Shown: one piece after another, positions 1 to 3,000 of the stretch
How positions within the stretch are numbered: position 1 is the stretch's first letter
Layout: each line of letters opens with the position of its first letter
From: a virus
Lineage: Duplodnaviria > Heunggongvirae > Uroviricota > Caudoviricetes
Reading direction: 5' to 3' (one strand)
DNA length: 5,621 nt
IMG/VR virus record: IMGVR_UViG_2667527849_000012
Position numbers: made by a program

Positions 1-3000
1 AAGGGGAAAACGCACGATGTGCTGACCGGAAGTGATGACGGTCGCCACAGCAACACGTCTCTGGCGCACTGACGGTTTCATCGTGGGTGTCGGTTATAAA
101 TTCTGATTAGCCAGGTAACACAGTGTTATGACAGCCCGCCGGTTCAGGCGGGCTTTTTTGTGGGGTGAATATGGCAGTAAAGATTTCAGGTGTACTGAAA
201 GACGGCACAGGAAAACCGGTACAGAACTGCACAATCCAGCTGAAAGCAAAACGTAACAGCACCACGGTGGTGGTGAACACGCTGGCCTCAGAAAATCCGG
301 ATGAAGCCGGGCGTTACAGCATGGACGTTGAGTACGGTCAGTACAGCGTTATTCTGTTGGTGGAAGGATTCCCGCCGTCACATGCCGGGACCATCACCGT
401 GTATGAAGATTCCCGACCCGGTACGCTGAATGATTTTCTCGGTGCCATGACGGAGGATGATGCCCGTCCTGAGGCACTGCGCCGTTTTGAACTGATGGTG
501 GAAGAGGTGGCGCGTAACGCGTCCGCGGTGGCACAGAACACGGCAGCCGCGAAGAAGTCAGCCAGCGATGCCGGCACATCAGCACGTGAGGCGGCAACCC
601 ATGCGACTGATGCTGCAGATTCAGCACGTGCAGCCAGCACGTCAGCCGGACAGGCCGCTTCGTCGGCTCAGTCAGCGTCTTCCAGCGCAGGAACGGCATC
701 AACAAAGGCCACTGAAGCCTCAAAAAGTGCTGCCGCTGCAGAGTCCTCAAAAAGCGCGGCGGCTACCAGTGCCGGTGCGGCGAAAACGTTAGAAACGAAT
801 GCGGCAGCGTCACAACAATCAGCAGCCACTTCTGCATCCACCGCGACCACGAAAGCGTCAGAAGCTGCCACCTCAGCCCGGGATGCGTCGGCTTCAAAAG
901 AGGCGGCAAAATCATCAGAAACGAACGCATCATCAAGCGCCAGTAGCGCAGCTTCCTCGGCGACGGCGGCTGCAAATTCTGCGAAGGCGGCCAAAACGTC
1001 CGAGACGAACGCCAGGTCTTCTGAAACGGCAGCGGGACAGAGTGCCTCAGCTGCGGCAGGCTCAAAAACAGCGGCTGCGTCGTCTGCCAGCGCCGCGTCA
1101 ACAAGTGCCGGGCAGGCCTCAGCCAGTGCCACCGCCGCCGGAAAATCGGNNNNNNNNNNNNNNNNNNNNNCCAGGTAACACAGTGTTATGACAGCCCGCC
1201 GGTTCAGGCGGGCTTTTTTGTGGGGTGAATATGGCAGTAAAGATTTCAGGTGTACTGAAAGACGGCACAGGAAAACCGGTACAGAACTGCACAATCCAGC
1301 TGAAAGCAAAACGTAACAGCACCACGGTGGTGGTGAACACGCTGGCCTCAGAAAATCCGGATGAAGCCGGGCGTTACAGCATGGACGTTGAGTACGGTCA
1401 GTACAGCGTTATTCTGTTGGTGGAAGGATTCCCGCCGTCACATGCCGGGACCATCACCGTGTATGAAGATTCCCGACCCGGTACGCTGAATGATTTTCTC
1501 GGTGCCATGACGGAGGATGATGCCCGTCCTGAGGCACTGCGCCGTTTTGAACTGATGGTGGAAGAGGTGGCGCGTAACGCGTCCGCGGTGGCACAGAACA
1601 CGGCAGCCGCGAAGAAGTCAGCCAGCGATGCCGGCACATCAGCACGTGAGGCGGCAACCCATGCGACTGATGCTGCAGGCTCAGCACGCGCAGCCAGCAC
1701 GTCAGCCGGACAGGCCGCGTCGTCGGCTCAGTCAGCATCTTCCAGCGCAGGAACGGCATCAACAAAGGCCAGTGAAGCATCGAAAAGTGCTGCTGCTGCA
1801 GAGTCCTCAAAAAGCGCGGCAGCTACCAGTGCCGCTGCGGCGAAAACGTCAGAAACGAATGCGGCAGCGTCACAACAATCAGCAGCCACTTCTGCATCCG
1901 CCGCGACCACGAAGGCGTCAGAAGCTGCCACCTCAGCCCGGGATGCGTCGGCTTCAAAAGAGGCGGCAAAATCATCAGAAACGAACGCATCATCAAGCGC
2001 CAGTAGCGCAGCTTCCTCGGCGACGGCGGCTGCAAATTCTGCGAAGGCGGCCAAAACGTCCGAGACGAACGCCAGGTCTTCTGAAACGGCAGCGGGACAG
2101 AGTGCCTCAGCTGCGGCAGGCTCAAAAACAGCGGCTGCGTCGTCTGCCAGCGCCGCGTCAACAAGTGCCGGGCAGGCCTCAGCCAGTGCCACCGCCGCCG
2201 GAAAATCGGCNNNNNNNNNNNNNNNNNNNNNCCAGGTAACACAGTGTTATGACAGCCCGCCGGTTCAGGCGGGCTTTTTTGTGGGGTGAATATGGCAGTA
2301 AAGATTTCAGGTGTACTGAAAGACGGCACAGGAAAACCGGTACAGAACTGCACAATCCAGCTGAAAGCAAAACGTAACAGCACCACGGTGGTGGTGAACA
2401 CGCTGGCCTCAGAAAATCCGGATGAAGCCGGGCGTTACAGCATGGACGTTGAGTACGGTCAGTACAGCGTTATTCTGTTGGTGGAAGGATTCCCGCCGTC
2501 ACATGCCGGGACCATCACCGTGTATGAAGATTCCCGACCCGGTACGCTGAATGATTTTCTCGGTGCCATGACGGAGGATGATGCCCGTCCTGAGGCACTG
2601 CGCCGTTTTGAACTGATGGTGGAAGAGGTGGCGCGTAACGCGTCCGCGGTGGCACAGAACACGGCAGCCGCGAAGAAGTCAGCCAGCGATGCCGGCACAT
2701 CAGCACGTGAGGCGGCAACCCATGCGACTGATGCTGCAGGCTCAGCACGCGCAGCCAGCACGTCAGCCGGACAGGCCGCGTCGTCGGCTCAGTCAGCATC
2801 TTCCAGCGCAGGAACGGCATCAACAAAGGCCAGTGAAGCATCGAAAAGTGCTGCTGCTGCAGAGTCCTCAAAAAGCGCGGCAGCTACCAGTGCCGCTGCG
2901 GCGAAAACGTCAGAAACGAATGCGGCAGCGTCACAACAATCAGCAGCCACTTCTGCATCCGCCGCGACCACGAAGGCGTCAGAAGCTGCCACCTCAGCCC

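What the first reader, a model, noticed from the sequence alone, without database searches (positions are those of the whole stretch)
619..854. Copy 1 differs from copy 2 in one discrete block of mostly synonymous substitutions
Copies 1 and 2 appear identical over 111-618 and 855-1149 but differ at 14 sites within 619-854 (1679-1914 in copy 2). Nine are synonymous; five change amino acids (D->G, T->S, G->A, L->S, T->A). Clustering and synonymous bias are not what sequencing error gives; they indicate two real coding alleles or paralogs, with the block pattern suggesting recombination or gene conversion between tail-fibre genes.
Basis: seen in the sequence. Interest (0 to 1): 0.45.

Follow-up and report, generated by a model that had tools for sequence, protein, structure and literature searches.

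The report
Stacked tail-fibre gene pieces in scaffold
The 14 differences are real, but the "two copies" are alternative assemblies of a multi-copy phage tail-fibre gene stacked in a gapped draft scaffold, so this is known tail-fibre allele variation, probably scrambled by the assembler, and not a new feature.

Summary
Window 111-1149 and 1171-2210 differ at exactly 14 sites, all in 619-854: 9 silent positions and 5 amino-acid changes (pN/pS 0.22).

The copies are not neighbouring genes. Runs of 21 N (1150-1170, 2211-2231) and a single N (3520) divide the window into four contigs. In N-free relatives, contig 1 runs directly into contig 4 as one lambda-type side tail fibre gene (stf, downstream of lom). 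Joining them here gives an open 1010-codon frame. Copies 2 and 3 are extra pieces stacked in between.

All pieces are exact mosaics of two alleles with no private changes. Allele A is intact in 7 other contigs and allele B in one. Each piece starts as B and ends as A, with the switch moving 3': 584/619, 854/888, 3287/3324, after 3915.

The two switch junctions are in none of 5,426 finished E. coli genomes. Copy 1's is absent from IMG/VR. Copy 2's is absent from the metagenome collection and occurs in one divergent IMG/VR contig. Such clean mosaics appear only in N-joined scaffolds.

Most likely these are phase-switched assembly contigs from two co-resident prophage alleles. Very recent gene conversion is the rival, and only reads can decide. 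stf recombination at population level is genuine and already known.

The parts
1..106 (+). 3' end of lom (Ail/Lom outer-membrane protein gene). It carries an 83-bp deletion between two CTGGCG repeats (junction at 61-66), which shifts the frame to a stop at 70-72.
   Evidence: alignment to NZ_CP138399 lom, translation. The same junction is in 10 IMG/VR contigs.
133..164 (+). Terminator-like hairpin plus T-run between lom and stf. It is repeated at the start of copies 2 and 3.
   Evidence: 8-bp stem, 7 GC pairs, T tail.
1..1149 (+). Scaffold contig 1: lom end plus stf codons 1-326 ('copy 1'). Haplotype is B at 470-584 and A at 619-1091.
619..854 (+). The reported block: 14 sites where copy 1 has the A state and copies 2 and 3 have the B state.
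1150..1170 (.). Scaffold gap of 21 N.
1171..2210 (+). Scaffold contig 2 ('copy 2'): the same 5' stf piece, B at 470-854 equivalents and A at 888-1091 equivalents. It equals copy 3 up to 1914 and copy 1 from 1915 on, with no private change.
2211..2231 (.). Scaffold gap of 21 N.
2232..3519 (+). Scaffold contig 3 ('copy 3' plus 309 nt more). It has the B state at all 35 A/B sites and is 100% identical over 1046 nt to a piece of IMGVR_UViG_2671180490_000011. It switches to the A state at 11 sites from 3324 to 3506.
3520..3520 (.). Single-N scaffold join. The sequence restarts 298 nt back and the reading frame breaks here.
   Evidence: repeat family D5; ORF 2286-3785 goes out of frame.
3521..5621 (+). 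Scaffold contig 4: the rest of stf (about codon 311 to codon 1010, running off the window). Its first 48-49 nt repeat the ends of contigs 1 and 2. It is non-A at 22 sites in 3576-3915 and then identical to the A relatives over 3916-5147.
   Evidence: Pfam Phage_fiber_2 and Collar domains.

Best explanation
The gene is stf, the lambda-type side tail fibre gene, lying downstream of lom in a lambdoid prophage. Its 5' third is present in several slightly different alleles in most E. coli genomes. The window is a gapped draft scaffold. A short-read assembler could not resolve co-resident stf alleles, and the scaffolder laid three alternative versions of the 5' 1 kb one after another, joined by N, between the two halves of what is really one gene (contig 1 then contig 4). 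The 14 sites are genuine, old, selectively filtered polymorphisms that separate two alleles, A and B, in the Ala/Ser-rich shaft region. Shown here: the gene identity, the scaffold layout, the single-gene structure in relatives, the two parental alleles, the staircase of switch points, and the absence or near-absence of the switch junctions elsewhere. Inferred: that the switches were made by the assembler (phase-switch chimeras formed at identical stretches of 33 nt or more) and not by recombination in the cell.
For: N runs at 1150-1170, 2211-2231 and 3520. N-free relatives L003, L007, L011 and L012 have window 1-1149 continuing straight into 3518-5621. Joining 171-1149 to 3569-5621 gives 1010 codons with no stop. 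The ends of contigs 1 and 2 overlap the start of contig 4 by 48 and 49 nt. Pfam hits are PF08400, PF03406 and PF07484. Finished genomes and phages annotate the region as J, lom, stf, tfa or 'side tail fiber protein | Lom'. The stf 5' region is in 4905 of 5426 finished genomes, with a median of 2 and a maximum of 14 places. Pure A occurs in 7 contigs and pure B in L047. Copies 1, 2 and 3 read BBBBB|A..., B(19)|A(16) and all B, with no private differences. The staircase continues in contigs 3 and 4. Exact one-switch mosaics occur only in N-joined stacks: the window, L039 and L047. Other drafts stack stf or J-lom pieces in the same way: L009, L010, L047+L039 and L007. Copy 1's junction has 0 hits in IMG/VR and none exact in finished genomes. 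Copy 2's junction has 1 hit in IMG/VR, in a divergent allele, 0 in metagenome contigs and none exact in finished genomes. None of 1539 natural allele pairs shows 10 or more differences confined to 250 nt or less. True same-genome paralogs on separate contigs differ at 28-40 sites spread over the whole region.
Against: No reads are available, so the chimera step is inference. The 48-49-nt contig overlaps suggest a k-mer size near 50. At that k a pure de Bruijn graph could not create switches across identical stretches of only 33-34 nt unless lower-k steps or consensus merging were involved. No copy in the window carries the A state at 470-584, so copy 1 may be the true allele of this strain. 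Recombination between stf alleles is real and frequent on evolutionary scales and has been shown experimentally (PMC3945230). A finished genome (A14, L002) has an allele with the B block followed by a mostly-A second block. The source record and its assembler could not be identified.
Confidence: 0.65

Rival explanations
1. Copies 1, 2 and 3 are all genuine stf alleles of three co-resident lambdoid prophages. They arose by very recent gene conversion of A-type genes by a B-type donor (or the reverse), with nested tracts that share the identical 5' 508 nt and end at different points. The scaffolder merely stacked three real paralogs.
For: stf is multi-copy in most genomes, up to 14 places. All four block combinations exist in nature. 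There are 64 patterns among 109 alleles. Switch points lie in identical stretches of 33 nt or more, as homologous recombination requires. Lambda x Rac crosses give many different stf hybrids (PMC3945230). The contig overlaps of about 49 nt argue that reads phased the 33-34-nt stretches. No A state at 470-584 is present in the window.
Against: There are no private mutations in any piece. The junctions are unseen in 5,426 finished genomes and absent or nearly absent from the large contig collections searched. A sister draft assembly shows different switch points between the same two alleles, which would require repeated independent events in near-identical strains. Only two downstream continuations exist for three 5' pieces, and both are themselves B-then-A mosaics. 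Natural same-genome paralogs differ at sites spread throughout the region.
Confidence: 0.27
2. The sequenced sample was a mixture: a mixed culture, or a population in which prophages were recombining. The stacked contigs would then be variants from different cells and not paralogs in one genome.
For: Several near-identical variants share exact flanks. The variants are combinations of two haplotypes.
Against: Minor recombinants would be far below assembly depth; recombinant frequency is described as low in PMC3945230. The relatives that carry the same lom deletion come from IMG/VR records whose identifiers look like isolate-genome identifiers (my reading of the ID format). The junction is not found in metagenome contigs.
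Confidence: 0.05
3. A real tandem array of 5' stf cassettes that serves programmed tail-fibre variation, by analogy with silent-cassette gene conversion, diversity-generating retroelements (DGRs) or invertase switching.
For: Only the superficial head-to-tail layout with a period of 1060-1061 nt.
Against: The unit joins are N gaps, and the frame breaks at 3520. N-free relatives and finished genomes have one copy per locus. The substitutions are not adenine-specific: 4 of 14 sites have A in copy 1 and 3 of 14 in copy 2. There are no inverted repeats of 30 nt or more. The variable block is in the shaft and not in the receptor-binding tip.
Confidence: 0.01

Closest known systems
Lambda Stf / E. 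coli K-12 StfR (Rac) side tail fibre proteins of lambdoid prophages
   Same: Same Pfam architecture: PF08400 N-terminal domain, Phage_fiber_2 repeats and Collar domain. Same position after J and lom and before tfa. RefSeq annotates the region as stfR / prophage tail fiber N-terminal domain-containing protein, and phage records annotate it as side tail fiber protein. Identity to known phages is 96-98%.
   Different: Nothing structural. The window version is interrupted by scaffold gaps and redundant pieces. The exact alleles are not in the finished-genome or phage collections (best 98.9% for B and 96.7-98.2% for the A gene).
Homologous-recombination mosaicism among lambdoid phages and prophages (De Paepe et al. 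2014, PMC3945230; Martinsohn et al. 2008, PMC2327257, title and abstract only)
   Same: Two-state polymorphisms are reshuffled in blocks among alleles, and all four gametes are present. Switch points lie in stretches of identity. stf/tfa is one of the lambda-prophage identity regions used in the published recombination assay.
   Different: Natural mosaics in the sample have several switches and private mutations. The window's pieces are perfectly clean single-switch hybrids that occur only in N-joined scaffolds.
Repeat-induced draft-assembly artefacts: parallel contigs of a multi-copy gene stacked in a scaffold, and haplotype phase-switch chimeras
   Same: N joins, redundant overlapping contig ends, a frame break at a join, a single intact gene recovered when the redundant pieces are removed, and the same layout in other draft assemblies.
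   Different: The assembler and reads are unknown, so the chimera mechanism is inferred. Contig overlaps of about 49 nt do not fit easily with switches across stretches of 33-34 nt.

Membership tests
Lambda-type side tail fibre (Stf/StfR) | Prophage tail fibre N-terminal domain (PF08400) at the N terminus | tested here: met
   residues 1-134, E = 1.4e-71, full-length match to the profile.
Lambda-type side tail fibre (Stf/StfR) | Phage tail fibre repeats and Collar domain in the distal part | tested here: met
   PF03406 twice (E = 5.9e-37) and PF07484 (E = 6.9e-12) in the protein made by joining contigs 1 and 4.
Lambda-type side tail fibre (Stf/StfR) | Gene order J - lom - stf - tfa in a lambdoid tail module | tested here: met
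   The window holds the lom end followed by stf. The full order is annotated in L001 and L002. ORFs of matching size and order are present in L007. Phage records annotate Lom and side tail fiber protein.
Genuine tandem gene duplication | Uninterrupted sequence across the copy junctions | tested here: not met
   The junctions are N runs of 21, 21 and 1.
Genuine tandem gene duplication | The same arrangement in finished or N-free relatives | tested here: not met
   There is one stf per locus in L001, L002, L003, L007, L011 and L012.
Scaffold stack of alternative contigs (assembly artefact) | Gap characters at the joins, redundant contig ends, and an intact gene once the redundant pieces are removed | tested here: met
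   48-49-nt overlaps; 1010 codons, no stop. The layout recurs in other drafts.
Scaffold stack of alternative contigs (assembly artefact) | Read-level evidence that the mosaic contigs are not supported by phased reads | not testable with these tools
   No reads are available and the source record was not found.
Gene-conversion / recombinant allele between paralogous stf genes | Two identifiable parental haplotypes and a clean switch between them | tested here: met
   A and B were identified. Copies 1 and 2 each have one switch and no private differences.
Gene-conversion / recombinant allele between paralogous stf genes | The recombinant junction seen independently (other genomes, or phased reads) | tested here: not met
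   Copy 1's junction has 0 hits in IMG/VR and none exact in 5,426 finished genomes. Copy 2's junction occurs once, in a divergent allele, with 0 hits in metagenome contigs and none exact in finished genomes. Reads could not be tested.
Diversity-generating retroelement target | Differences confined to positions that are adenine in one copy (the template repeat) | tested here: not met
   only 4 of 14 sites have A in copy 1 and 3 of 14 in copy 2. There are 10 transitions and 4 transversions of mixed type.
Invertase (Gin/Cin-type) tail-fibre switching | Inverted repeat crossover sites flanking alternative fibre segments | tested here: not met
   no inverted repeats of 30 nt or more in the window. 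All copies are direct.

The most novel reading that the evidence does not exclude
Copies 1, 2 and 3 are all real. One strain would then carry three lambdoid prophages whose stf genes were homogenised very recently by nested gene-conversion tracts from a single B-type donor. The tracts would share a 5' origin and stop at successive stretches of identity. That would be a snapshot of ongoing concerted evolution of tail-fibre genes within one chromosome, caught before any point mutation accumulated.
Probability: 0.25. Interest if true: 0.35.

Novelty: already known. Interest (0 to 1): 0.1.

Why it matters
The main value is as a caution. Multi-copy prophage genes such as stf are places where draft scaffolds can contain stacked, possibly chimeric pieces that look like tandem paralogs with recombination blocks. 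Taken at face value, they would inflate gene counts, create false truncated 'tail fibre' ORFs and suggest false recombination events. The underlying biology, block-wise reshuffling of stf alleles among lambdoid prophages, is real but well documented. If the mosaics proved real, they would give a modestly interesting example of very recent gene conversion between prophages within one genome.

Tried and rejected
1. Finding the source record failed. The lom-deletion junction is absent from GTDB representative genomes. Copy 2's junction is absent from metagenome contigs and occurs in IMG/VR only in the divergent L054. Exact-protein look-ups of the ORF that reads through the single N found nothing. 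The assembler and sample type therefore remain unknown.

2. Looking for a finished genome with both parental alleles failed. The best matches are 98.9% for B and 96.7-97.8% for the A gene. Phages reach 98.2-98.3%. The lineage is poorly represented, and it might be Shigella or an unsampled E. coli clade; I did not test this.

3. The 83 extra bases in the reference matches turned out to be a lom deletion and have nothing to do with the stf copies.

4. A DGR, an invertase switch and a real tandem array were considered and rejected.

5. Conservation of the N-terminal domain as the reason for the identical 5' flank was rejected, because population diversity there is similar to that in the block.

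6. Two scripting errors were found and corrected: the C-tail/D register was off by one (fixed), and the contig join was off by one (fixed).

7. The literature search for prophage tail-fibre misassembly returned only general assembly papers, which I did not use.

Full report
**1. Checking the observation**

A base-by-base comparison confirms the finding. Window 111-1149 ("copy 1") and 1171-2210 ("copy 2") differ at exactly 14 positions, all between 619 and 854, and are identical on both sides.

In the frame that opens at ATG 171, the 14 sites fall in 13 codons. Eight codons change silently. One codon changes at two positions (GAT>GGC, D>G). The other four give T>S, G>A, L>S and T>A.

The clustering has P of about 5e-8 if sites were placed uniformly. 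The synonymous excess has P = 0.005, and Nei-Gojobori pN/pS is 0.215. Population diversity in the 5' flank (pi 0.035-0.05) is similar to that in the block. The identical 5' flank therefore cannot be put down to conservation of the N-terminal domain.

**2. What the finding does not mention**

- The window contains runs of 21 N at 1150-1170 and 2211-2231, and a single N at 3520.
- There is a third copy, starting at 2232. It differs from copies 1 and 2 at 16 further sites in 888-1091 (copy-1 coordinates), 14 of them silent.
- After the single N, the sequence restarts 298 nt back at 96% identity, and the reading frame breaks.

The window is therefore four contigs in a scaffold: 1-1149, 1171-2210, 2232-3519 and 3521-5621.

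**3. What the gene is**

Positions 1-106 are the end of lom, followed by a terminator-like hairpin at 133-154. The gene that starts at 171 is the lambda-type side tail fibre gene stf.

- Pfam gives PF08400 (residues 1-134, E = 1.4e-71), two Phage_fiber_2 repeats and a Collar domain.
- Finished genomes annotate J, lom, stfR / "prophage tail fiber N-terminal domain-containing protein", then tfa.
- Phage records annotate "side tail fiber protein | Lom".
- The 5' kilobase is present in 4905 of 5426 finished E. coli genomes, with a median of 2 and a maximum of 14 places per genome.

It is a typical multi-copy prophage gene.

**4. The copies are a scaffold stack and not neighbouring genes**

Ten IMG/VR contigs share the window's unusual lom allele. 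In the four that have no N in this region (L003, L007, L011, L012), window 1-1149 continues directly into window 3518-5621.

The ends of contigs 1 and 2 repeat the first 48 and 49 nt of contig 4. Joining 171-1149 to 3569-5621 gives 1010 codons with no stop. In L007 the intact gene is 1029 codons and is followed by tfa. Copies 2 and 3 are therefore redundant pieces inserted between the two halves of one gene.

The same serial stacking with N joins recurs in other draft assemblies:

- L009 and L010, in stf.
- Contig IMGVR_UViG_2671180490_000011 (L047 plus L039), whose layout closely parallels the window's.
- L007, where J-lom segments are stacked three times.

**5. Two parental alleles and a staircase of switches**

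Seven independent contigs carry an allele, A, that differs from window copy 1 only at 470, 491, 557, 573 and 584. At those five sites copy 1 has the state of copy 3. Copy 3 (allele B) is 100% identical over 1046 nt to a piece of L047. A and B differ at 35 sites in 111-1149.

At those 35 sites:

| Piece | Pattern | Private differences |
|---|---|---|
| Copy 1 | BBBBB then 30 A | 0 |
| Copy 2 | 19 B then 16 A | 0 |
| Copy 3 | all B | 0 |

Downstream the pattern continues. Contig 3 stays non-A through 3287 and then has the A state at all 11 sites from 3324 to 3506. Contig 4 is non-A at 22 sites in 3576-3915 and then identical to the A relatives for 1232 nt.

Every piece thus starts as B and ends as A, with the switch moving 3'. 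All observed switches, including those in the sister scaffold (491/557 and 1001/1043), fall in identical stretches of 33-65 nt.

**6. Are the mosaics real alleles or assembly chimeras?**

Evidence for an artefact:

- Exact one-switch mosaics with no private change occur only in N-joined stacks. Every other mosaic allele in the sample has at least 2 private differences and at least 2 switches.
- Copy 1's junction 91-mer is absent from 2.9 million IMG/VR contigs. It has no exact match in 5,426 finished genomes. The parental A-A and B-B versions are present in 11 and 3 of the fetched loci.
- Copy 2's junction 78-mer occurs once in IMG/VR, in an otherwise divergent allele (L054, about 96% identical). 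It has no hit in metagenome contigs and no exact match in finished genomes.
- None of 1539 natural allele pairs has 10 or more differences confined to 250 nt or less. True same-genome paralogs on separate contigs differ at 28-40 sites spread over the whole region.
- The sister scaffold shows other switch points between the same two alleles.

Evidence for real recombinants:

- The population is strongly mosaic. There are 64 patterns among 109 alleles. All four combinations of the block junction occur as exact 78-mers: 49, 1, 13 and 63 contigs.
- A finished genome (A14, L002) has the B block followed by a mostly-A second block.
- Lambda x Rac crosses inside stf/tfa yield many different hybrids (PMC3945230).
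- Contig overlaps of about 49 nt suggest a k-mer size at which stretches of 33-34 nt would have been phased by reads.
- No copy in the window has the A state at 470-584.

I put about 0.65 on assembler phase-switching and about 0.27 on real, very recent gene conversion. Only reads or long reads can settle it.

**7. Other mechanisms considered**

- A DGR is excluded because the substitutions are not adenine-specific. The block also lies in the shaft and not in the receptor-binding tip.
- An invertase switch is excluded because there are no inverted repeats.
- A true tandem array is excluded by the N joins, the frame break and the single-copy relatives.

**8. Verdict**

Its premise of two adjacent copies is an assembly artefact, and the discrete block may itself have been made by the assembler.

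Nothing here lies outside known biology or known assembly behaviour, so interest is low.

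Noticed in passing
window 1-106 (junction at 61-66): lom lacks 83 bp relative to finished genomes, lost between two CTGGCG direct repeats. The frame shifts to a stop at 70-72 (a 160-aa ORF in place of 199 aa). The same junction is in 10 IMG/VR contigs and in none of the GTDB representative genomes. It looks like a real lineage marker and a probable lom pseudogene.
   Followed up: partly
L007 about 4500-13840 (IMGVR_UViG_2698536366_000004): J-lom segments appear three times in series, joined by single N characters (7274, 10455). Both the 160-aa and the 199-aa lom versions are present. This is the same stacking artefact affecting other multi-copy prophage tail genes.
   Followed up: partly
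window 3576-3915 and 5148-5172: Contig 4 differs from the A-type relatives at 22 clustered sites, is then identical for 1232 nt, and then differs at 3 clustered sites. The block structure therefore extends well beyond the reported region.
   Followed up: partly
window 3965-4071 and 4097-4203: A direct repeat (74% identity, 132-nt spacing) that encodes the two Pfam Phage_fiber_2 repeats ([26 protein letters not shown]).
   Followed up: partly
window about 5180-5621: A His-rich run of HxH motifs (SHTHS, GAHTHS, GAHQHS, GNHTHS, GAHAHT, GAHTHS, GSHGHT) in the distal fibre. From memory, this resembles the metal-binding His repeats of T4 gp37-type fibre tips. I did not test it here.
   Followed up: no
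window, minus strand and other plus-strand frames across 338-4205: Many long ORFs of 100-386 aa overlap stf in other frames (for example 2789-3949 on the minus strand). They are expected by-products of the GC-rich Ala/Ser codon repeats and are not genes.
   Followed up: no
L002 10159-12058 (E. coli A14, NZ_CP028760): Directly downstream of tfa, this prophage carries a reverse-transcriptase-domain gene and a SLATT-domain gene. This could be a retron-like or Abi-like defence cargo at the tail-fibre end of the prophage.
   Followed up: no
whole window compared with the collections: Neither parental stf allele is closely matched in 5,426 finished E. coli genomes (98.9% for B and 96.7-97.8% for the A gene) or in 50,697 phage records (98.2-98.3%). 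The host lineage of this prophage is under-represented among finished genomes.
   Followed up: partly
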